A program made the position numbers and the translations under genes. A DNA stretch of 62,234 bases from Chloracidobacterium sp. UBA6041 (GTDB lineage: Bacteria > Acidobacteriota > Blastocatellia > Pyrinomonadales > Pyrinomonadaceae), in the NCBI GenBank assembly GCA_002427845.1, contig DIYZ01000279.1, forward strand, positions 1 through 62,234. Direction: 5' to 3'. The notes under the pieces were generated by a model, which saw only the letters and a list, made by a program, of their open reading frames with translations, was not told the DNA's origin and did no database searches. Below are positions 401-58,148 of this stretch, one piece after another (the stretch's first letter is position 1; each line of letters begins with the position of its first letter).

Positions 401-435
401 CCACCCCAGCCGGGCTGCCCGGCTCGGGACCCCGG
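401..435. repeat. GC-rich repeat ccaccccagccgggctgccc..gggaccccgg, intergenic copy
   Basis: The 20-nt stretch 401-420 is identical to 3554-3573 inside the oxidoreductase gene. Both copies end in gggaccccgg. Local hairpin agccggg-ctg-cccggct. Confidence 0.6.
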
Positions 436-600
436 TGTCAGCGCTTTGTTCGGCGGCAACCTGTTGCAGCCTTCGCTCAAATCGGATCATTCACCAGCGG
501 CGTCTAAGCCGCCGCGGACCAAAGCGGCGACAGGCGGGGTCCCCAGCGTGGCAACCGCGCTGGGGTGCTCGAGTCGCCGCACTCCAAGGAGAGGAAACTC

Positions 601-4406: not shown

Positions 4407-7400
4407 CTAACCGTGGATGCGCAGGCTGGCATAGTCGACGGCTATGACACCATAAGATAGGGAGAGTCCCTCGACTTCTGGTCGGGCAAAACGGTAAGTC
4501 TGCTCGTGAAAGAGCGGAAGAAGCAGTCTATCGCGCGCGATGATTTCTTCGATCTGCCGATACACCGCATGCCGCGCCGCCGGCGATGTTTCTGATCGTC
4601 CCCGGGCTATCAGACGGTCCACTTCGGTTGAACCACATAGCTGTCCCAACAACCCCTCTTTGGTGGCCAGGATGTTAGCGAAGGTGTCGGCATCCGGATA
4701 GTCAGCCGCCCAGCGCCCCAGCACCACGTCGACGGAGCCCTGGGCCACCGCCTCCAGCCATTCGTCGATGGTCTTATTCATGGGACGAATTGTTACCTGC
4801 TGCTCGCGAAAAGAGCGTGAGATCTCGCGTGAGAAGGCCGCGTATTCTCCAAAGAACACCGGGTTAAGGACCGCGGTCAATTCCATTTCCACGCCTGGTT
4901 GCGGGGGCGCTGACGCGGATGCCGAAGGCATTCGTGGGGCGTATGTAGAATCATGACCAAGCAGTCCAGGCGGAATGAGCCCGTGCGCCGGGACGGCGAG
5001 CCGTCCCAGGGTTTGACGAACCACGCTCGCAACATCGATAGACTGTGCCAGCGTCTGCCGGAGGCGTTTGTCTTTCAGCGGTCCGCGGTGACTGTTGAAT
5101 GCAGCGTAGTAGGTTATGAGCCTGGGCATCTCGTGATAGCCGGACGCAAACTCAGGCTCGCGGCGCAGAACCTCTGCGTCCGCGGGTAACAGATCCGACG
5201 CCAGCGAAAATCGACCGGCACGGAACTGAGAGAGAATGTCCGTCGGCGCAACGCCGAAGTTGAAGGTAAGTCCTTCAATCTTAGGATAGCCACTGCGCCA
5301 GTAGGTTTTATTTCGTTCGAGTTCGAGGCGAACGCCTGGCTCAAACTTCACCACGCGAAAAGGGCCAGTTCCCACGCTGCCCTCCTGCCAGCCCCCCCCG
5401 AACTTGTCACTACCTTCGGGAACAATGGCTGCTGCGTGGTAAGAAATGAGTGCCGGAAAGAACGAGACTGGTTCATCCAGCTCGATCGTAAACTCGTCGG
5501 CAGAGTGAATTCGGAAACCGGCCAGGTCAGACTGCTCTCCGTTAAGGAGCGCCTTGGCACCGCGAATCGGAGAATAGAAGAAGCGGCCGGTGCTGTCAGG
5601 GTTCAGTAGTAGCCTCTCGAACGAATAGCGAACATCGCGCGGTGTCAGTTTGCGTCCATCATGGAAGCGGACATCATCTCGGAGGCGAAAACGATATCTC
5701 TTACCCCCCTGTTCGGCGGTGAAATCAGTCGCCAACCAGGGAACGATCCTCGCGCCGCCGACGTCGCGGGTTAGTGTTTCGAAGATGCTCGGCAGCACCT
5801 CTGCATCTTCCATGGTGCCCGCCAGTGAAGGATCGAGGCGGTGAAGTGTTCCGGTAATCGGGACTTCAATAGTTCCACCGCCCGCCCGTCCGATGTCGGT
5901 CGCTTTGGTCACCGATTCTAATTTGCCTATCTCGGCATAGTTCACATATGGAGCACTACCATGCAGGGTGAGGCCGAGAACTTTTGAGTTGGCCAGGCGA
6001 TAATCGACGTCGTGAAACAGCGGTAACACCATTCCTGATTCCTGCAAAAAACTTTCGTACTTCCTATAAAGTAATGCTCTGACACCGGGACGACTTTCTG
6101 TGCGTGCCTCTTCCAGAATCGGATCCCCTTCGGCCGAGGAGATGTATGCGCGGTATAAACCCACACGCGAATGGAAGAGGCCATAGGTAAAGTCGTCGGG
6201 ATCATCATAATCAGCGTTCCACCTGCCGATGAACAGATCTATGCCGGTACTATTCTGGAAGGATTCCAGGTAGGAGGCCATCGTGGGAGTTGCGACCTCC
6301 ACCTTCACGCCGAGCTCCGACCAGATCGAGAGCAGAGTTGTCAGCAACGACTTATATCGATCCAGGAACAGAGGATGCGCAGCTGCCCTGAGGCTGATTG
6401 GCTCATTGATGCCGGCTGAACCCAGCATGGCAAGGGCCTCGTCGCGAGTGAGTGTTTGGCGTCGCCTGCCAGGATCATACCCCAGCATCGCGGGTGGAAT
6501 CAGGCAGACGGCAGGTTGCGCAAAGCGCCCCAATGTTTGCCAAACGAGATCGTGCGTGCGCACTATCCCCGAGAGCGCCCGACGAAGGTCTGCGTTTCGG
6601 GCGACTGAACCACTCGTAGAATTGAATATGAGAAAGTAAGTATTCTTGCGCGGAGACTCAACCAACCCGCCACGAAAGCGCGGGTCGCGAAGAAACTCTT
6701 CAAGATCCTGGGGCGAGAGATCACGTGCGAGATCAATCGAGCCGGACCGCAACCCTGAAGCTATCTCTGAGGCGCTTAGGCCAGCGCGAAATTCCACCTC
6801 TTCAAGAAACGCTGAAGAACCCTTCCAGTATCTTTCATTGCGCTCAAGCATGATACGGTCAGGGCTGTACGCGGTCATTCGAAACGGACCCGTGCCGATG
6901 GGAATAGAATCGGGCTTTCCATCATCGACGCCTTCATCAACGTTAACAGTGATACCGGTCTTGTAATCTGTTAGCAAGGCGGGATAGATGGAAAGCGGGT
7001 CGGGCAATTGTATTTCCAATTTGTAATCTGAATGGACCAGAATTCCAGCTAGCTCCTTATCATTGCTCTTAGCGAATTCCGCGGCGCCGCGGATCGCCGC
7101 GAGACCTGGAGGTAGCTCGCGAGCCACACGAATGCTCCGCGCGAAGGAATCCTTGATAGCTTGAGCGGTCAGGGCCTGGCCATTCTGGAAGCGGACGTTT
7201 TCTCGCAGAGTAAAGAAGACTGAAGTGCCGTCGTCGGACACTTCCCATTTCTCACAGAGAGCCGGAATCAAATTGCCTTCCAGGTCTGTGGCTAAGAGCG
7301 TCTCAAAAACGTTCGCTAAAATCTCCTGCTCTTCCACGAGTTCCATATTGACCGGATCAATATCACCGAGCGGAGTGGCCAAAGCCACGACCAGTCTGCC

Positions 7401-13088: not shown

Positions 13089-13955
13089 CTACCGCTCGCG
13101 ATTCTGTAGGTCCCGTACACGCGTCGCCAGGCGCGCATCACCAATTTTCCCTTCGACCTTCCCTTCGATCTTCTTTGCCACTGACGGAAATGACGCGGTC
13201 GCTCCGTTCCAGCGAAGTTGTTCGACATCGTCGAAGAGCGGCGCGTCGATTCGCAGCGTCGCGAGGTGCTTGAAGAGCAGCGCGCGTTCGAGATTATTCC
13301 GCTCGGGGTCATTCCTGAGAACATCGTCGGGAAACTGTTCGATGTGGCCGTAGCGGTTGATAAGTGTCGCGGCTGTTTTAGGCCCTAAACCCGGGATGCC
13401 AGGATACCCATCAGCGGCGTCACCCACGAGCGCGAGGTAGTCCGGGATGAACGTGGGCGCGACACCGAACTTCGCGCGAATGGCTTGCTCATCACGAATC
13501 TGACCGCTTCTCCGATCCACTTGAACTACGCGCTCTCCGACGACGCATTGCGCGAGATCCTTGTCCGGCGTCCAGATGCACACCTTCTGCACGCGCTCGT
13601 CCTGGGCCGCAATGTGTGCCGCGGACGCGAGCGCATCGTCAGCCTCGAACTCGATCATGGGCCACACGGCAACGGCCATCGCGGCGAGCGCCTCCTCGAG
13701 CGGGTGGAACTGCGCAAGCAGGGCCGGCTCGATGCCCGCGCCGGTTTTGTACTCCGGCCAAAGATCATTGCGGAACGACTCGATTACGTGATCAGTTGCG
13801 ACACCAATGTGCGTCGCCCCATCTTCGAGCATCTTCGCAACCGTATTAAGCACGCCGGCCACGGCGCCGAAAGGTGGATCGGTTTTCTTGAAACGCCGGA
13901 TGCCGTAGAAGTGACGAAAGAGTTCGTATGTGCCGTCAATGAGGTGAACGATCAT
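13089..13955 (-). CDS. 5'-3' exonuclease / flap endonuclease family protein
   Basis: MIVHLIDGTYELFRHFYG, FEADDALAS, H3TH motif GIPGLGPKTAATLINRYG. The ORF extends to 13982, but those extra codons lie in a heptamer array. Confidence 0.85.
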   Translation of the reverse strand: MIVHLIDGTYELFRHFYGIRRFKKTDPPFGAVAGVLNTVAKMLEDGATHIGVATDHVIESFRNDLWPEYKTGAGIEPALLAQFHPLEEALAAMAVAVWPMIEFEADDALASAAHIAAQDERVQKVCIWTPDKDLAQCVVGERVVQVDRRSGQIRDEQAIRAKFGVAPTFIPDYLALVGDAADGYPGIPGLGPKTAATLINRYGHIEQFPDDVLRNDPERNNLERALLFKHLATLRIDAPLFDDVEQLRWNGATASFPSVAKKIEGKVEGKIGDARLATRVRDLQNRER

Positions 13956-18601: not shown

Positions 18602-18669
18602 AGAAAGGGTAAGGGGTAAAGAGTAAGCGACCAGAATCTGGCTCTTACTCTTTACCCCCTACCCTTTCT
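18602..18669. repeat. inverted pair of GGGTAAG-type heptamer arrays forming a ~27-bp hairpin between convergent genes
   Basis: agaaagggtaaggggtaaagagtaagc / 12-nt loop / gctcttactctttaccccctaccctttct. Stop triplets are spaced 7 nt apart on both strands. This may be a bidirectional terminator, though T-runs are not adjacent. Confidence 0.8.
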
Positions 18670-50511: not shown

Positions 50512-52578
50512 TTGAAAAGCAACAACCACATTAGTCGACTGGTCAGAACTGTTTGCATGGTTGCGCTCGCGACCGTTTTATTTCTTTCCTATTCATCTAA
50601 CTCGACTTACATGAAGGGTTCTATTATGTCTGCTCAGGAGAAGGTTCGCGTGCGTGCGCCGGAACTAACCGGCGGTCGTGGCTGGCTTAACACCGATAAG
50701 CCGCTTTCGCTTCAGGCGCTCAAAGGAAAAGTGGTGCTGCTGGATTTCTGGACCTATGGCTGCATCAACTGCATTCATATCATTCCAGACCTAAAACGGC
50801 TCGAAGCGAAGTATCCAAACCAGCTCGTGGTTATCGGTGTTCACTCTGCCAAGTTTGAAAATGAAAAGGACACCGAAAACATCAGGCGCATCATTTTGCG
50901 ATATGAATTGGAGCATCCGGTTTACAACGATGCGGAATTTACGGTTTGGCAAAGCTATGGCGTGCGCGCCTGGCCCACGCAGGTTTTGATCGACCCCGCC
51001 GGGTATGTAATCGGCGGAGTTTCAGGCGAAGGCAACTACGAGCTCATCGATCAAGTCGTAGCCAGGGCTGTTGATGAATTTCGCAAGCGCGGCGAACTCA
51101 ACGAAGAACCGCTGAAGCTAACGCTGGAACGCGCCAAGGTGGGGGACATGCCACTCGCCTTTCCCGGCAAGCTTCTGGCCGACGCCAGGAGCGATCGTCT
51201 GTATATCGCTGACTCAAATCACAATCGCATCGTCATAACGAAACTGGACGGCACGCTGGTCGACATAATAGGAACGGGGACGCGCGGAGCGGCGGATGGC
51301 GCCTTCGACAAGACCAGTTTTTATCGACCGCAAGGCCTGGCGCTCGACGGCGACAGTTTGTACGTGGCGGATACGGAGAATCACTTGATTCGCCGCGTTG
51401 ATTTAAAGTCGAAGACAGTCGAGACAGTGGCGGGGACCGGCCGGCAATCGCGCGACTATTTCCAACACGGCCCGGCACGAACCATCGACTTGAGTTCGCC
51501 CTGGGATGTGCAACTCGTCGGACGGCAGCTTTACATCACCATGGCCGGCACGCATCAGATTTGGCAGCTGGATCTCGACAAGCACGAGGTCTCGACTTTC
51601 GCCGGCTCTGGTCGGGAAGCGCGACAGGACGGGCCGCTGCTCCAAGCCGGGTTCGCGCAGCCTTCGGGCATTGCTTCTGACGGTAAACGACTCTATATCG
51701 CGGACAGCGAGTCGAATATTATCCGTCAGATCGATATAGCCAGCGGTCAAGTCGAAACACTGGTGGGTGGCGACTTGTTTGAGTTTGGCGATGTTGACGG
51801 CGCCGGTGATGACGTCCGTTTACAACATCCTCTTGGTGTGTTTTCTGCCGGCGACAAAATACTGATCGCCGATACTTACAATCACAAGATCAAAGAACTC
51901 GATCCCAAAACGCGGTCAGTCAAAACATTCCTCGGCGTCGGCAAGCCGGGACAATCCGACGGCGTCCCGGCGTCTTTCTACGAACCTGCGGGTTTGAGTA
52001 TTGCAAACGGCAAGCTTTACATCGCCGACACGAACAACCATGCCATTCGAGTGGTGGATTTGAAAACTAAAGAGACTTCTACGTTGCGAGTCAAAGGACT
52101 TGAGCCGCCCACGGTATTGGTCCAATTGCCAAATGATGAGGGGGCGCCAAACGCGCAAGAGATCAAAATTGCTACGCAGCATCTTCGCGGACACAGCAAC
52201 GGAGAGCTGGTTGTCAATATTGAGCTGCCACCGGGTTATCACCTTAATCCCGCAGCGCCACAACGTTATCGAGTTTCAGTGGAAACTGGCGAGCAGCGAC
52301 TCGGCCTGATCTCGGCTTCCATAATCGGAGTGATCGGACGCGACACGAGCGTAAGCCAGACGTCGAAGAGTCTCCAGTTTCCTTTACGAATTCCCTTCCA
52401 CGCCTTTGAACCTGGCGCGGCTGAACTTCGCGTGCAGCTCACGCTCTTCTATTGCCGCGAAGACAACACCGGCACCTGCCGCATAAAGACATTTGTGTGG
52501 CGCGTACTCGTGGAAGTTACAAACGATGCGAGCGCGGCAAAAGAAATGAGTATTCAGGGAAAACTCACCGCTGATTAA
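50512..52578 (+). CDS. thioredoxin-like domain plus NHL-repeat beta-propeller protein (NHLRC2-like)
   Basis: GKVVLLDFWTYGCINCIHIIPDL, then NHL repeats LYIADSNHNRIV, LYVADTENHLIRRV, LYIADSESNIIRQI, ILIADTYNHKIKEL, LYIADTNNHAIRVV. The start is uncertain (TTG 50512 or ATG 50557/50611/50626). Confidence 0.85.
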   Translation: MKSNNHISRLVRTVCMVALATVLFLSYSSNSTYMKGSIMSAQEKVRVRAPELTGGRGWLNTDKPLSLQALKGKVVLLDFWTYGCINCIHIIPDLKRLEAKYPNQLVVIGVHSAKFENEKDTENIRRIILRYELEHPVYNDAEFTVWQSYGVRAWPTQVLIDPAGYVIGGVSGEGNYELIDQVVARAVDEFRKRGELNEEPLKLTLERAKVGDMPLAFPGKLLADARSDRLYIADSNHNRIVITKLDGTLVDIIGTGTRGAADGAFDKTSFYRPQGLALDGDSLYVADTENHLIRRVDLKSKTVETVAGTGRQSRDYFQHGPARTIDLSSPWDVQLVGRQLYITMAGTHQIWQLDLDKHEVSTFAGSGREARQDGPLLQAGFAQPSGIASDGKRLYIADSESNIIRQIDIASGQVETLVGGDLFEFGDVDGAGDDVRLQHPLGVFSAGDKILIADTYNHKIKELDPKTRSVKTFLGVGKPGQSDGVPASFYEPAGLSIANGKLYIADTNNHAIRVVDLKTKETSTLRVKGLEPPTVLVQLPNDEGAPNAQEIKIATQHLRGHSNGELVVNIELPPGYHLNPAAPQRYRVSVETGEQRLGLISASIIGVIGRDTSVSQTSKSLQFPLRIPFHAFEPGAAELRVQLTLFYCREDNTGTCRIKTFVWRVLVEVTNDASAAKEMSIQGKLTAD

Positions 52579-52581
52579 AAA

Positions 52582-52737
52582 GCGGCTTTGCCGCCTTCCG
52601 TGCGGAAAGGCTAAGCCTTTCCGGTAAGCGCCTAAATTTTATAATGAGGCTGCGCCTCCAGAGCTGAGGCGTAGCCTCGAGAAATTAAGAGCGGACGGAA
52701 AGCCGTAGGCTTTCCGCACGGAGAGCGGCCAAGCCGC
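52582..52737. repeat. dyad-symmetric cluster of six tri-loop mini-hairpins
   Basis: H1 gcggc-ttt-gccgc 52582-52594. H2 cggaaaggc-taa-gcctttccg 52603-52623. H3 gaggc-tgc-gcctc 52646-52658. H4 gaggc-gta-gcctc 52666-52678. H5 cggaaagcc-gta-ggctttccg 52696-52716. H6 gcggc-caa-gccgc 52725-52737. Confidence 0.8.
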
Positions 52738-52861
52738 AAAATCTGTCGCGAGGACAAGCGAAGACGAACGGGCATGACTTTAAGTCACGGGTTGACTTGC
52801 TCCCCATGCACGAGGCGAGTAACATCAAGCTTCCCCTAATTTAATCACCAGGAGTAAAGCC

Positions 52862-53428
52862 GTGGCTGACCAACCAGGAGTAAAACCTGTGCCTGATAAA
52901 CCATTTCTTACCGACATCAAAACTTTACGCGAGCGCGCCCGCCAACACATTGAAAAAGGCGCCGTAACCGAAGGGTACCGGGCTGACCGCGACACAGTCG
53001 TCAAAATATTGAACGAAGCACTGGCGACTGAAATAGTCTGCGTGTTGCGTTACAAGCGGCATTATTTCATGGCTACCGGCATCAACGCTGAAAGCGTCGC
53101 CGCGGAGTTTTTACAACACGCCAATGAGGAGCAGGGACACGCGGATCAGATTGCTCAACGTATCGTGCAATTGGGTGGCGAGCCCAACTTCAATCCCGAT
53201 GGCCTGACAACGCGCAGCCACGCGGAATATGTGGAGGGTGAAACGCTCTTAGACATGATCAAAGAAGATTTAGTTGCCGAACGCATTGCGATCGACAGCT
53301 ATCGCGAGATGATCAACTATGTCGCCAACGACGATCCGACTACGCGCCGCATGCTGGAGGGCATTCTGGCGATGGAAGAAGAACACGCTGACGATCTGGT
53401 GAGCCTGCTGGAAACAATGGGCAACTAG
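52862..53428 (+). CDS. ferritin-like (bacterioferritin-related) domain protein
   Basis: 188-aa ORF with GTG start 7 nt after AGGAG. Di-iron-type motifs EEQGHADQIAQRI and MEEEHADDL. Confidence 0.75.
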   Translation: MADQPGVKPVPDKPFLTDIKTLRERARQHIEKGAVTEGYRADRDTVVKILNEALATEIVCVLRYKRHYFMATGINAESVAAEFLQHANEEQGHADQIAQRIVQLGGEPNFNPDGLTTRSHAEYVEGETLLDMIKEDLVAERIAIDSYREMINYVANDDPTTRRMLEGILAMEEEHADDLVSLLETMGN

Positions 53429-55854: not shown

Positions 55855-55856
55855 CA

Positions 55857-55955
55857 GTTTCGAGTTTCGGGTTTCGAGTTTCGAGTTGCCTCCCAGGGGA
55901 TCGACGCACGACCACATTCAACCCGGAACTCGGAAACTCGGAACTCGAAACTAGT
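55857..55955. repeat. inverted pair of heptamer arrays (GTTTCGA x4-5 / AACTCGG x5) forming an imperfect long hairpin
   Basis: gtttcga gtttcgg gtttcga gtttcga gttgcct ... aacccgg aactcgg aaactcgg aactcga aactagt. It fills the hbd-crotonase spacer. Confidence 0.85.
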
Positions 55956-55960
55956 AACGC

Positions 55961-56892: not shown

Positions 56893-57372
56893 TTGCAGCC
56901 TGCAATTCACGAAGGACATCTCAACGCTCAGGGATTTCGTTTTGCGATTGTCGCCAGTCGCTGGAACGACTTCATTAGCGCTCGACTGGTTGAGGGTGCG
57001 CTCGATGCGCTTGAACGTTTAGGAGCCGAAGAGAAAGAAGTTGCGGTCTACAAAGTTCCCGGCGCTTTCGAGATTCCGCTGTTGGCGCTGAAGCTGGCCG
57101 GCTCCGGTAACTTTGACGCAGTCATCTGCGTCGGTACAATTATTCGCGGCCAAACTCCACACTTCGAGTACATTGCAAATGAAGTTGCCGGCGGCATCGC
57201 GCGGGCGGGTTTGCAAACCGGGATACCGGTAGTTTTCGGAGTCATTACCGCAGACAATTTTGACCAGGCAATCGAACGCGCGGGGGTCAAGTTGGGAAAC
57301 AAGGGTTTTGAGGCCGCTACGACGGCGGTTGAGTTAGTAAATCTTTACAAGGAAGCTTTTGGAGAACGGTGA
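56893..57372 (+). CDS. ribH: 6,7-dimethyl-8-ribityllumazine synthase
   Basis: [30 protein letters not shown] start. Confidence 0.93.
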
Positions 57373-57434
57373 ACGATGAACGCGGAACGATGAACAGAAA
57401 GCTTTCTTCATCGTTCATAGTTCATAGTTCATCC
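57370..57434. repeat. inverted pair of heptamer arrays (TGAACGA x4 / TTCATAG x4) forming a hairpin in the ribH-nusB spacer
   Basis: tgaacga tgaacgc ggaacga tgaacag aaagctttc ttcatcg ttcatag ttcatag ttcatcc. The first TGA is the ribH stop codon. Confidence 0.85.
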
Positions 57435-57444
57435 TTGAAGCATT

Positions 57445-58099: not shown

Positions 58100-58148
58100 C
58101 TTTATTCTTTCTTATTCACTATTCACCATTTACCATTTACTATTCTTT
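58100..58148. repeat. heptamer array ATTYACY-like x7 abutting the cheA start
   Basis: ctttatt ctttctt attcact attcacc atttacc atttact attcttt c GTG. Confidence 0.8.

What the first reader, a model, noticed from the sequence alone, without database searches (positions are those of the whole stretch)
52582..52737. Dyad-symmetric cluster of six tri-loop hairpins with a compensatory stem swap
The cluster lies between the Trx-NHL gene stop (52578) and the ferritin-like gene. The 156-nt segment contains six short hairpins, all with 3-nt loops. They are gcggc-ttt-gccgc, cggaaaggc-taa-gcctttccg, gaggc-tgc-gcctc, gaggc-gta-gcctc, cggaaagcc-gta-ggctttccg and gcggc-caa-gccgc. They are arranged as mirror pairs H1/H6, H2/H5 and H3/H4 around ~52662. 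H5 differs from the inverse of H2 by a double change (ggc..gcc to gcc..ggc). That change keeps the local 9-bp stem but breaks long-range H2:H5 pairing. This suggests the local hairpins, in DNA or RNA, are what is maintained. No hairpin has a plus-strand U-tract, so it is not a canonical terminator for the upstream gene. A TATAAT hexamer (52639-52644) sits between H2 and H3.
Basis: seen in the sequence. Interest (0 to 1): 0.65.

Follow-up and report, generated by a model that had tools for sequence, protein, structure and literature searches.

The report
REPIN-like mobile repeat, three-hairpin arms
The six-hairpin cluster is one copy of a small mobile DNA repeat found about 25 times in this soil acidobacterium's genome and linked to a RAYT tyrosine transposase; it is not a regulator specific to the two neighbouring genes, so it is an ordinary kind of element in a lineage where it had not been described.

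Summary
Window 52582-52737 holds six perfect hairpins with 3-nt loops in mirror order. This is the only such cluster in the 62 kb.

It is not a locus-specific element. The outer 42 nt (H1 + 8-nt linker + H2) and its inverted partner (H5 + linker' + H6) are a dispersed repeat. About 22-29 copies occur in this Pyrinomonadaceae-like genome, with unrelated flanks.

More than 120 soil-metagenome contigs carry the unit. Many show the same H1-H2-H3 / H4-H5-H6 doublet.

In six of those contigs a REP-associated tyrosine transposase (RAYT) gene sits exactly between H3 and H4. The window element is therefore a REPIN-like doublet without the transposase gene.

The G-C/C-G flip in H2/H5 is always compensated inside each hairpin (167 complementary, 0 G..G or C..C). 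It is often discordant between the two arms.

RNAfold still prefers one long hairpin (-100 to -104 kcal/mol, against -58 to -60 for six local hairpins).

The four closest relatives (Trx-NHL 82-84% identical) lack the element. The TATAAT is not a family feature. There are no target-site duplications.

Any terminator or mRNA-stabiliser role is untested because no RNA data were found.

Verdict: a new member of a known kind; moderate interest.

The parts
50557..52578 (+). Upstream gene: thioredoxin-like/NHL-repeat protein (673 aa as called in public contigs). Its stop codon TAA is at 52576-52578, 3 nt before the element.
   Evidence: Pfam Thioredoxin_8, AhpC-TSA and NHL; gene calls in L001-L006
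52582..52737 (.). The whole REPIN-like doublet (156 nt): two inverted three-hairpin half-elements joined head to head, with no transposase gene between them.
52582..52623 (+). Left 42-nt repeat unit. It comprises H1 (52582-52594), the linker CTTCCGTG (52595-52602, ending in the near-invariant GTG foot) and H2 (52603-52623).
   Evidence: Metagenome and MAG contig depth rises 22-29 fold over exactly this stretch, with unrelated flanks; family consensus
52624..52645 (+). AT-rich spacer between H2 and H3. It contains the TATAAT at 52640-52645, which is not conserved in the family.
   Evidence: Family spacer is 63-69% A+T at positions 11-18, with no excess of -10-like hexamers
52646..52658 (+). H3 hairpin, GAGGC-TGC-GCCTC. 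This is the inner hairpin of the left half. In autonomous copies the RAYT gene starts about 10-20 nt after it.
52659..52665 (.). 7-nt junction (CAGAGCT) at the position where RAYT-bearing relatives carry the transposase gene.
   Evidence: L094, L100, L101, L206 and L201
52666..52678 (-). H4 hairpin, GAGGC-GTA-GCCTC. It is the inverted copy of an H3-type hairpin (loop GNA is the reverse complement of TNC).
52679..52695 (-). AT-rich spacer of the right half-element.
   Evidence: family alignment
52696..52737 (-). Right 42-nt repeat unit in inverted orientation. It comprises H5 (52696-52716, GCC..GGC variant of the 8th stem pair), linker' CACGGAGA (52717-52724) and H6 (52725-52737).
52797..52825 (+). 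Not part of the element: the promoter-like region of the ferritin-like gene. It has -35 TTGCTC (52797-52802), a 17-nt spacer and -10 TAACAT (52820-52825). This is the only part of the spacer shared with relatives that lack the element.
   Evidence: Alignment with L211-L214. A relative's metatranscriptome contig starts at TCCCCTAATT, just downstream.
52862..53428 (+). Downstream gene: ferritin-like/rubrerythrin-fold protein (188 aa; an alternative GTG start at 52889 gives 179 aa).
   Evidence: Pfam Ferritin 2.9e-28; gene calls differ between 188 and 179 aa

Best explanation
The 156-nt segment is one copy of a REPIN-like, non-autonomous mobile repeat. It belongs to a REP family associated with RAYTs (REP-associated tyrosine transposases, HUH/Y1 enzymes related to IS200/IS605 TnpA) in soil Acidobacteriota.

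Each half-element is about 65-77 nt long in this copy. It consists of three short hairpins with 3-nt loops. These are H1 (GCGGC-TNN-GCCGC), then an 8-nt lineage-specific linker ending in GTG, then H2 (CGGAAAGSC-TNN-GSCTTTCCG), then an AT-rich spacer, then H3 (GAGGC-TNC-GCCTC).

In autonomous copies two half-elements flank the RAYT gene in inverted orientation. The window copy has the same two halves joined with only 7 nt between H3 and H4.

Shown here: the dispersal, the copy number, the doublet architecture, the association with RAYT genes, the local compensatory changes, the absence of target-site duplications, and the absence of the element from the closest orthologous spacers.

Inferred from what is known of RAYT and IS200/IS605 enzymes: the hairpins fold in single-stranded DNA and are bound by the RAYT. 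This would explain why each local stem and the first loop T are maintained, and why the linker differs between RAYT lineages. Under this view the element reached its place 3 nt after the Trx-NHL stop codon by RAYT-mediated copying.

If the element is transcribed with the upstream gene it would form a very stable 3' structure. That structure could stabilise or end the transcript, as REPs do in enterobacteria. This was not tested.
For: (1) Dispersed repeat. Contigs from soil and permafrost metagenomes, and from three 4.2-5.2 Mb runs of the organism itself, pile up only on 52582-52623 and 52696-52737. Depth rises from 11-16x to 258-366x there, 23-29 contigs are laid, and the flanks are unrelated.
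Exact pattern matches gave 31 convergent pairs and relaxed matching gave 53, all with the same six-hairpin layout.
(3) RAYT genes lie between H3 and H4 in L094, L100, L101 and L206. L201 carries a frameshifted copy, and L147 carries a copy cut by the contig start, so only its downstream flank could be checked. NCBIfam REP_Tyr_transpos scores 79 and 87 bits (cut-off 80), and Pfam Y1_Tnp matches. The DHxH and Y..H.NP motifs are invariant. Public sources name the homologues RayT.
(4) The 200-nt centre of L170 keeps a weak match (E 7e-4, 16 of 25 residues) to the first 25 RAYT codons. This would be a deletion intermediate.
(5) Local covariation. The 8th pair of H2 is G-C in 115 units, C-G in 52, and never G..G or C..C. 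Pairs 25-39, 27-37, 1-13 and 2-12 also show changes on both sides. The covariation score is 0.174 against 0.071 in shuffles.
(6) No target-site duplication above chance was found in 51 doublets. HUH/Y1 transposition makes none.
(7) Copies are intergenic, and many start 3-40 nt after a stop codon. This is the known REP distribution (PMC3733652).
(8) The four closest orthologous spacers lack the element.
Against: No RAYT gene was located in the window's own genome. There is none in the 62-kb window, and the L201 RAYT is absent from the organism's runs.

The canonical REP 5' tetranucleotide GTAG/GTGG is not present. The foot is NGTG.

Mobility is inferred from distribution, not observed.

The family alignment is ascertainment-biased. 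The search pattern fixed part of H2 and the GTG foot in at least one arm, and some metagenome loci are the same locus in related strains.

Thermodynamics favours one long hairpin over six local ones for the isolated strand.

Palindrome-templated mutation could contribute to the compensatory changes without selection.
Confidence: 0.88

Rival explanations
1. The repeat copy has been put to use by the host. Transcribed as the 3' end of the Trx-NHL mRNA, it would act as a U-tract-less terminator or a 3'-exonuclease barrier. It could also insulate the ferritin-like gene's own promoter from read-through. This is a possible secondary role and is compatible with the main explanation, not a replacement for it.
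For: The element starts 3 nt after the stop codon and ends 59 nt before the conserved -35 of the next gene. The fold is extremely stable, -104 kcal/mol with z -9.5. Many relatives carry unrelated long hairpins at the same position after this gene. Family copies cluster just after stop codons. REPs are reported to stabilise or terminate transcripts (PMC3733652, background section).
Against: There is no U-tract. No RNA run covering the element was found. The closest relatives do without it, and several relatives have a spacer of only 36-66 nt with no hairpin. Location after stop codons may only reflect where insertions are tolerated.
Confidence: 0.3
2. A locus-specific cis-regulatory structure that evolved in place, for example tandem terminator hairpins or a structured RNA for the Trx-NHL/ferritin pair.
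For: The position between two redox and iron genes. No match to any Rfam family, so it could be undescribed.
Against: The same sequence occurs about 25 times in the genome and in more than 120 unrelated metagenome contexts. It is absent from the four closest orthologous spacers. It flanks RAYT genes.
Confidence: 0.03
3. A classical MITE: an internally deleted DDE-transposase insertion sequence with terminal inverted repeats, moved by cut-and-paste.
For: Size of 156 nt, long inverted termini, folds into one long hairpin, multi-copy, and intergenic.
Against: Target-site duplications are not above chance. The only recurrent protein family found next to the units, in an all-against-all comparison of 283 neighbouring ORFs, is a Y1/HUH RAYT and not a DDE enzyme. 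Local hairpins covary, rather than the terminal sequence being conserved.
Confidence: 0.04
4. Operator array: the perfect 21-bp and 13-bp palindromes are binding sites on double-stranded DNA for dimeric regulators of the ferritin-like gene.
For: The dyads are perfect. H2 and H5 are 93 bp apart and H3 and H4 are 20 bp apart.
Against: The sites lie upstream of, not over, the conserved promoter, and relatives with the same promoter lack them. The compensated G-C to C-G flips change the double-stranded sequence that a regulator would read but keep the hairpin. Copies lie next to unrelated genes.
Confidence: 0.02
5. The hairpins are kept perfect by mutation, not selection. Intrastrand template switching in quasi-palindromes would copy a change from one arm to the other, so the 'compensatory' flips would carry no functional meaning.
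For: This genome is rich in long intergenic hairpins built from tandem heptamers, with slippage polymorphism between strains. That suggests active repeat and palindrome mutagenesis.
Against: It does not explain the dispersal, the RAYT linkage, the conserved loop T, or the conserved order and spacing of three different hairpins. It may still contribute to stem repair.
Confidence: 0.03

Closest known systems
REPINs (REP doublets forming hairpins) and their RAYTs in Pseudomonas and Enterobacteria (Bertels and Rainey 2011, PMC3116915; PMC3337134)
   Same: Short extragenic palindromic units repeated tens of times. Units are arranged as inverted doublets that can fold into one long hairpin. A RAYT gene is flanked by the same units in inverted orientation. 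There are no target-site duplications. Stems keep pairing through compensatory changes.
   Different: Each arm here is a compound of three different hairpins plus a variable linker (about 65-77 nt), not one imperfect 20-40-nt palindrome. The foot is NGTG, not GTAG/GTGG. The host is Acidobacteriota (Blastocatellia and Terriglobia), not Gammaproteobacteria. Copy number is modest, about 25.
TIRtrons and TIRYTs (Di Nocera et al. 2013, PMC3733652)
   Same: RAYT-like genes flanked by long inverted repeats unrelated to GTAG REPs. Some of those repeats are described as 'double palindromic' and as members of moderately abundant repeat families arranged as dimers. One sharply defined TIRYT group is from Acidobacteria (Terriglobus, Koribacter, Acidobacterium, Granulicella).
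   Different: I could not compare sequences with their figures, so identity with any described TIR family is untested. Quentin et al. place most TIRYTs in subclass 2.1, which has HTH extensions and NHVH motifs. The proteins here are 182-200 aa with DHxH and no such extension.
TnpA_Y1 class 2 (TnpA_REP/RAYT) subclasses with 'atypical secondary structures' (Quentin et al. 2018, PMC6006769)
   Same: The Y---NP signature of class 2, a DH[LM]H HUH motif, a proximal SS motif (YRWSS), a length of about 180 aa, and genes flanked by several non-canonical hairpins that recur elsewhere in the genome.
   Different: Their subclass 2.6 is mainly Bacteroidetes, with NH[LIV]H. Assignment of the present clade to a subclass was not tested.
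E. coli BIMEs / REP elements
   Same: Clusters of inverted palindromic units in 3' untranslated and intercistronic regions. They are reported to affect mRNA stability and termination.
   Different: BIMEs are mosaics of Y and Z REPs with defined linkers and known IHF and gyrase binding. None of that was tested here, and there is no sequence similarity.
IS200/IS605 insertion sequences and their PATE derivatives
   Same: A Y1 HUH transposase, subterminal hairpins recognised as single-stranded DNA, and no target duplication.
   Different: The NCBIfam IS200 model scores only 18.7 bits (cut-off 55), against 79-87 bits for the RAYT model. The ends are inverted copies of each other, unlike the dissimilar left and right ends of IS608.

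Membership tests
REP/REPIN-RAYT system | Short palindromic unit present in many copies per genome, with unrelated flanks | tested here: met
   23-29 contigs per run, and a 22-29 fold depth excess confined to the 42-nt units, in X1, X3, X4, X6 and X7. More than 120 metagenome contigs carry the unit.
REP/REPIN-RAYT system | Units paired in inverted orientation so that the doublet can form a hairpin (REPIN) | tested here: met
   53 convergent pairs, mostly 55-100 nt apart. The window doublet folds as one hairpin at -100 to -104 kcal/mol.
REP/REPIN-RAYT system | A RAYT gene flanked by the same units in inverted orientation | tested here: met
   Seen in L094, L100, L101 and L206, in L201 (frameshifted), and in L147 (cut at the contig start, so only its downstream flank was checked). 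This was found in related genomes only, not in the window organism itself.
REP/REPIN-RAYT system | Conserved GTAG/GTGG tetranucleotide at the 5' foot of the hairpin | tested here: not met
   The foot of H2 is (T/C)GTG, and GTG is kept in 46 of 47 arms on each side. It resembles GT[AG]G but does not fit it. One arm per locus was fixed by the search pattern.
REP/REPIN-RAYT system | Extragenic location, mostly downstream of genes | tested here: met
   Copies lie between ORFs, and many start 3-40 nt after a stop codon. Divergent flanks are the rarer case (crude ORF calls).
REP/REPIN-RAYT system | No target-site duplication | tested here: met
   The distribution of flanking direct repeats equals that of shuffled pairings in 51 doublets.
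REP/REPIN-RAYT system | RAYT binds and cleaves the unit as single-stranded DNA; the element is mobile | not testable with these tools
   Only indirect evidence: the element is present here but absent from the four closest orthologous spacers.
RAYT (TnpA_REP) protein family, for the partner protein | HUH motif and catalytic Tyr in a Y---NP context; passes the curated family model | tested here: met
   DHxH and Y.H.NP are invariant in 7 sequences. NF047646 scores 87.3 bits (above the cut-off of 80) for L100 and 79.0 bits (just below it) for L094.
MITE derived from a DDE insertion sequence | Terminal inverted repeats plus target-site duplication; a cognate DDE transposase | tested here: not met
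   No duplication above chance. The recurrent neighbouring gene is a Y1 enzyme.
Intrinsic (Rho-independent) terminator | GC-rich hairpin followed by a U-tract on the transcribed strand | tested here: not met
   The scan finds none in 52579-52861. The sequence after each hairpin lacks a T-run.
Any Rfam RNA family | Score at or above the family's gathering threshold | tested here: not met
   No hit at gathering thresholds. The best hit in E-value mode is Fibro-purF at 16 bits, against a threshold of 60.
TIRtron/TIRYT (Di Nocera 2013) | RAYT-like gene flanked by long inverted repeats that lack the GTAG tag, some forming repeat families | tested here: inconclusive
   The description fits. No sequence comparison with the published Acidobacterial TIRs or TIRYT proteins was possible.

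The most novel reading that the evidence does not exclude
The 8-nt linker between H1 and H2 may be a lineage-specific 'address'. It differs between RAYT lineages (CTGATGTG, CTTCCGTG, GCACAGTG, CTGCTGTG and others). It is nearly always matched by its complement in the other arm, while H1, H2 and H3 stay constant. It could work like the guide sequences of IS608 TnpA, pairing with the cleavage site, or it could pair across the arms to close a four-hairpin junction. That would make this Acidobacterial RAYT clade a three-hairpin, guide-carrying single-strand DNA recognition system distinct from GTAG-type REPs.
Probability: 0.2. Interest if true: 0.6.

Novelty: new member of a known kind. Interest (0 to 1): 0.35.

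Why it matters
This explains a striking structure without invoking new biology at this locus. Annotators should mask it as a repeat rather than read it as a regulator of the redox and iron genes.

For people who study REPINs and RAYTs it adds a well-populated family outside the Proteobacteria, in abundant but poorly cultured soil Acidobacteriota. The family has an unusual compound arm of three hairpins plus a variable linker. It also gives clean natural mutagenesis data showing which pairs must pair and which loop bases are fixed. That is useful for working out how these transposases read single-stranded DNA.

The repeat also breaks short-read assemblies of these genomes: contigs end inside the unit.

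Tried and rejected
- A search of the 62-kb window for the stems found no second copy. CGGAAAGGC occurs at the chance rate, and the one extra GAGGCNNNGCCTC at 833 lies in coding-like sequence. On its own this wrongly suggested a unique element.
- Rfam gave nothing, at gathering thresholds and in E-value mode.
- The ten public contigs carrying the identical locus (L001-L010) are at least 99.77% identical to the window overall. Their invariant spacer therefore says nothing about constraint.
- Orthologous spacers in 80 species-level relatives mostly hold unrelated hairpins or none. Only L016 has a homologous, partly decayed copy. I could not decide whether it is orthologous or an independent insertion.
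- The sigma-70 promoter scan found no promoter using the TATAAT, and the family test shows the hexamer is not conserved.
- I looked for RNA evidence. No RNA run holds the element. One metatranscriptome contig covers only a relative's ferritin-like mRNA.
- I looked for the RAYT in the organism's own runs, using the L201 locus because it has the same linker type. Only the repeat units matched, not the gene.
- A sequence search of RAYT against solved structures gave no hit at E < 0.01.
- Target-site duplications: the AAAA/AAAA flanking the window copy is at the chance level.
- A multibranch fold with six local hairpins plus linker pairing scores -68 kcal/mol as RNA. As DNA it is less stable than the local hairpins alone (-34 against -40). 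Thermodynamics therefore does not favour it.

Full report
**1. The observation**

The sequence at 52582-52737 is exactly as described. It holds six perfect hairpins, all with 3-nt loops:
- H1, 52582-52594
- H2, 52603-52623
- H3, 52646-52658
- H4, 52666-52678
- H5, 52696-52716
- H6, 52725-52737

They begin 3 nt after the TAA stop (52576-52578) of a thioredoxin-like/NHL-repeat gene. A ferritin-like gene follows (Pfam). The repeat finder reports the outer 42 nt as inverted arms that are 86% complementary.

The window contains 84 perfect hairpins with a 5-bp stem and 3-nt loop, against 62.5 in shuffles. Six of them lie in these 156 nt. No other 156-nt stretch has more than two, and 50 shuffles never exceeded four.

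**2. Folding**

As an isolated RNA strand the region folds into one long hairpin. The energy is -104.1 kcal/mol on the + strand (z = -9.5) and -95.1 on the - strand (z = -8.5). The six local hairpins together give only -58 to -60 kcal/mol. With DNA parameters the figures are -59 to -60 against -40. Rfam has no matching family, and there is no U-tract terminator or sigma-70-type promoter in the spacer.

**3. Whose genome**

The neighbouring 3-hydroxyacyl-CoA dehydrogenase is encoded identically on 22 public contigs. These come from soil-type metagenomes and four NCBI MAGs. The ten contigs fetched are at least 99.77% identical to the window, so their identical spacer carries no information. Orthologues of the Trx-NHL protein are named Pyrinomonadaceae or Blastocatellia (Acidobacteriota).

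**4. The turning point: it is a dispersed repeat**

I laid the contigs of public soil and permafrost metagenomes on the locus. Depth is flat at 9-25x across the genes. It jumps to 366x (X1), 654x (X3) and 959x (X10) over 52585-52620 only, and to a lesser degree over 52696-52737. There are 28-43 separate contigs, with 2-7 mismatches in those shown. Their flanks do not agree with each other.

In X1 and X3 these contigs have the same depth as the locus itself, about 12x and about 24x. Three runs labelled with the organism's own name (4.2-5.2 Mb each) give 23-27 contigs and a 22-27 fold excess.

The 42-nt block H1 + linker + H2 is therefore present about 22-29 times in this genome. The H3/H4 centre shows about a 2-3 fold excess. 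The short-read contigs for the locus end inside the unit. The 62-kb window holds no second copy, as expected at about one copy per 200 kb.

**5. The family**

I scanned JGI metagenome contigs for GTGCGGAAAGSCNNNGSCTTTCCG. Thirty-one had convergent exact matches and 53 had convergent relaxed matches.

All show the window's layout:
- GCGGC-TNN-GCCGC, then
- an 8-nt linker ending in GTG, then
- CGGAAAGSC-TNN-GSCTTTCCG, then
- about 18-26 nt of A+T-rich spacer, then
- GAGGC-TNC-GCCTC, often with an extended stem, then
- a few nt, followed by the mirror image of all of the above.

An H3-type perfect hairpin follows H2 in 125 of 148 half-elements. Its stems vary in a compensated way: GAGGC/GCCTC, AAGGC/GCCTT, GGGGC/GCCCC and GCGGC/GCCGC.

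**6. The transposase**

I compared 283 ORFs lying within 400 nt of a unit all against all. One of the two largest recurrent families (three members each) was a 182-200-aa protein. It matches NCBIfam REP_Tyr_transpos (87.3 and 79.0 bits; cut-off 80) and Pfam Y1_Tnp.

tblastn finds it in L094, L100, L101, L206, L147 (cut by the contig start) and L201 (frameshifted). Wherever both flanks are present, the gene lies exactly between an H3-type and an H4-type hairpin, with complete half-elements on both sides in inverted orientation. For L147 only the downstream flank could be checked.

The 200-nt centre of L170 keeps a weak match (E 7e-4, 16 of 25 residues) to the first 25 codons. This would be an internal-deletion intermediate.

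The proteins keep DHxH and Y.H.NP invariant, plus SLW and YRWSS. Y---NP is the class 2 (TnpA_REP/RAYT) signature of Quentin et al. (PMC6006769). More than 2000 homologues exist. Public sources call them 'REP element-mobilizing transposase RayT' or 'REP-associated tyrosine transposase [Terriglobia bacterium]'.

The window element is thus the gene-less doublet form, a REPIN in the sense of Bertels and Rainey (PMC3116915).

**7. What is maintained**

On a gapless alignment of 47 distinct doublets (A2) I counted two structures.

Local hairpins plus linker pairing:
- 96.0% of cells are paired, against 89.7% in shuffles and 37-43% when the partner is slid.
- 14 pairs show changes on both sides, and the covariation score is 0.174 against 0.071.
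- The 8th pair of H2 is G-C in 34, C-G in 11 and other in 2. In H5 it is G-C in 28, C-G in 17 and U-A in 1.
- Pairs 25-39 (A-U to U-A), 27-37 and 52-62 (A-U to G-C), 1-13 and 2-12 also flip with compensation.

All long-range pairing:
- The same H2/H5 positions fail. Pair 29-60 is unpaired in 19 of 47, pair 35-54 in 21, pair 25-64 in 8 and pair 39-50 in 10.

Over all 170 H2-type cores in the fetched loci, the 8th pair is G..C in 115, C..G in 52, C..A in 2 and T..A in 1. It is never G..G or C..C, although the search pattern admitted both. Independence would predict about 72.

The first loop base is T in 144 of 153 H1 loops and 148 of 153 H2 loops. This points to base-specific recognition on one strand of each arm.

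The linkers do covary between arms. Pair 17-72 is A-U in 32 and C-G in 15, with none unpaired. However, each RAYT-bearing locus has its own linker, and the sequences come from different genomes. This signal is therefore confounded with lineage. It may reflect matching to the resident RAYT rather than base pairing.

Caveats:
- The search pattern fixed part of one arm per locus.
- Relaxed matching allowed at most 5 changes.
- A few loci are the same site in related strains.

**8. Insertion behaviour**

Direct repeats flanking 51 doublets match the shuffled expectation. This includes the window's AAAA/AAAA. There is no target consensus. That fits HUH/Y1 transposition and argues against a DDE-type MITE. 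Copies are intergenic and often begin 3-40 nt after a stop codon. Unidirectional or convergent neighbours are commoner than divergent ones (crude ORF calls). This is the distribution described for REPs (PMC3733652).

**9. This locus in relatives**

The four closest Trx-NHL orthologues found (82-84% identical; L211-L214) keep the same gene order but lack the element. Their spacers are 95-220 nt long. Only the last 90 nt or so align, and that part carries the following features:
- -35 TTGCTC (52797-52802), a 17-nt spacer and -10 TAACAT (52820-52825)
- CCCCTAATTT
- the ribosome-binding site

A metatranscriptome contig from a relative starts at TCCCCTAATT, consistent with a transcription start just after that -10.

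More distant relatives have spacers of 36-265 nt. Some have no hairpin at all. Many have long hairpins of unrelated sequence. L016 (75% identical orthologue) has a homologous copy with H1-H4 intact, H5 decayed and H6 lost. I cannot tell orthology from independent insertion.

The element is therefore an insertion between the upstream stop codon and the downstream promoter, not a conserved part of this operon's control. TANNNT at the TATAAT position occurs in 24 of 148 half-elements, against 36 +/- 5 expected.

**10. Mechanism**

Shown here:
- a multi-copy, RAYT-linked, doublet-forming repeat with locally compensated stems
- no target duplication
- lineage-specific presence

Inferred from the known biochemistry of RAYT and IS200/IS605 enzymes:
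- The hairpins form in single-stranded DNA and are bound by the RAYT, with the GTG foot and linker near the cleavage or recognition site.
- Doublets are copied as units.

Untested:
- Whether this copy affects expression. No RNA run covers it. Its position and stability make a role as a 3' barrier or terminator plausible.
- Whether the window's organism still encodes a RAYT. It was not found in the window, and the L201 gene is absent from the organism's runs.

**11. Comparison with known systems**

It works like, and meets most defining features of, a REPIN-RAYT system. It fails the GTAG/GTGG tag.

It also fits the broader 'TIRtron/TIRYT' description of Di Nocera et al. They noted RAYT-like genes flanked by long, sometimes 'double palindromic' inverted repeats that form repeat families, and they described an Acidobacterial TIRYT group. 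It also fits the 'atypical secondary structures' that Quentin et al. found flanking some TnpA_Y1 subclasses.

I found no paper linking RAYTs with Blastocatellia or Pyrinomonadaceae. That shows only that none is in the searched library.

Verdict: a new member of a known kind, with an unusual three-hairpin compound arm.

Noticed in passing
window 55856-55958 (also 57364-57436, 18602-18669, about 58100-58140): Several intergenic spacers are filled by long hairpins whose arms are tandem heptamers. Examples are AGTTTCG x4.5 facing its complement between the 3HCDH and enoyl-CoA hydratase genes, and GAACGNT repeats between ribH and nusB. The first one differs between strains by exactly one AGTTTCG unit (L003 and L006 lack it). 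These resemble cyanobacterial STRR heptamer repeats (from memory). They are not related in sequence to the REPIN-like family.
   Followed up: partly
window 402-567: Another long inverted repeat (33-nt arms, 82% complementary, 100 nt apart) with nested GC-rich hairpins (CAGCCGGGCTGCCCGGCTC..., GCGTGGCAACCGCGC) lies just upstream of an ORF starting at 602. It was not tested for dispersal.
   Followed up: no
L038 (Pyrinomonadaceae SMAG_U8543), +25..+221 after the Trx-NHL stop: A 197-nt 'palindrome of palindromes' of unrelated sequence sits at the same genomic position. It runs AGCCCC-GTA-GGGGCT, CCCAGCAC-TTCA-GTGCTGGG, GTCCC-GTA-GGGAC and then their mirror copies. It is probably a different compound REP-like family.
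   Followed up: no
L011, L013, L031, downstream of the Trx-NHL stop: Three relatives share a different long inverted repeat of about 110 nt (GGACTGCGGCGGCTTGACGCCGCTTTCGCG ... AAAGCGGCGTCAAGCCGCCGCAGTCC) at this position. L017 and L044 carry GGGAGCGCGGGC.TCCCTGCCCGC-type arms. The spacer after this gene seems to be a recurrent landing site for hairpin repeats.
   Followed up: partly
window 52847-52891: A 15-nt direct repeat duplicates the ribosome-binding site region (ACCAGGAGTAAAGCC-GTG and ACCAGGAGTAAAACC-TGTG). This gives two candidate GTG starts for the ferritin-like gene, at 52862 and 52889. Public gene calls split between 188 and 179 aa.
   Followed up: partly
L003, about 13093-13127 (window about 58059): One strain carries an extra segment of about 28 nt (…CGCTAAATGATCACCTGGCTGAAGCCGGTGCT…) with its own small hairpin in an intergenic spacer. 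It is absent from the window.
   Followed up: no
L170 4052-4227: A family doublet with an unusually long centre of about 176 nt between the two units (one search's 200 is the start-to-start spacing of the pattern matches). The centre gives a weak tblastn match (E 7e-4, 16 of 25 residues) to the first 25 codons of the RAYT gene. It is an apparent intermediate between the autonomous and the gene-less forms.
   Followed up: partly
L007/L008 about 5683-5827 (window 50703-50787): Two NCBI MAG contigs have a run of N inside the Trx-NHL gene, which explains their truncated 596-aa gene calls. This is an assembly gap, not biology.
   Followed up: yes
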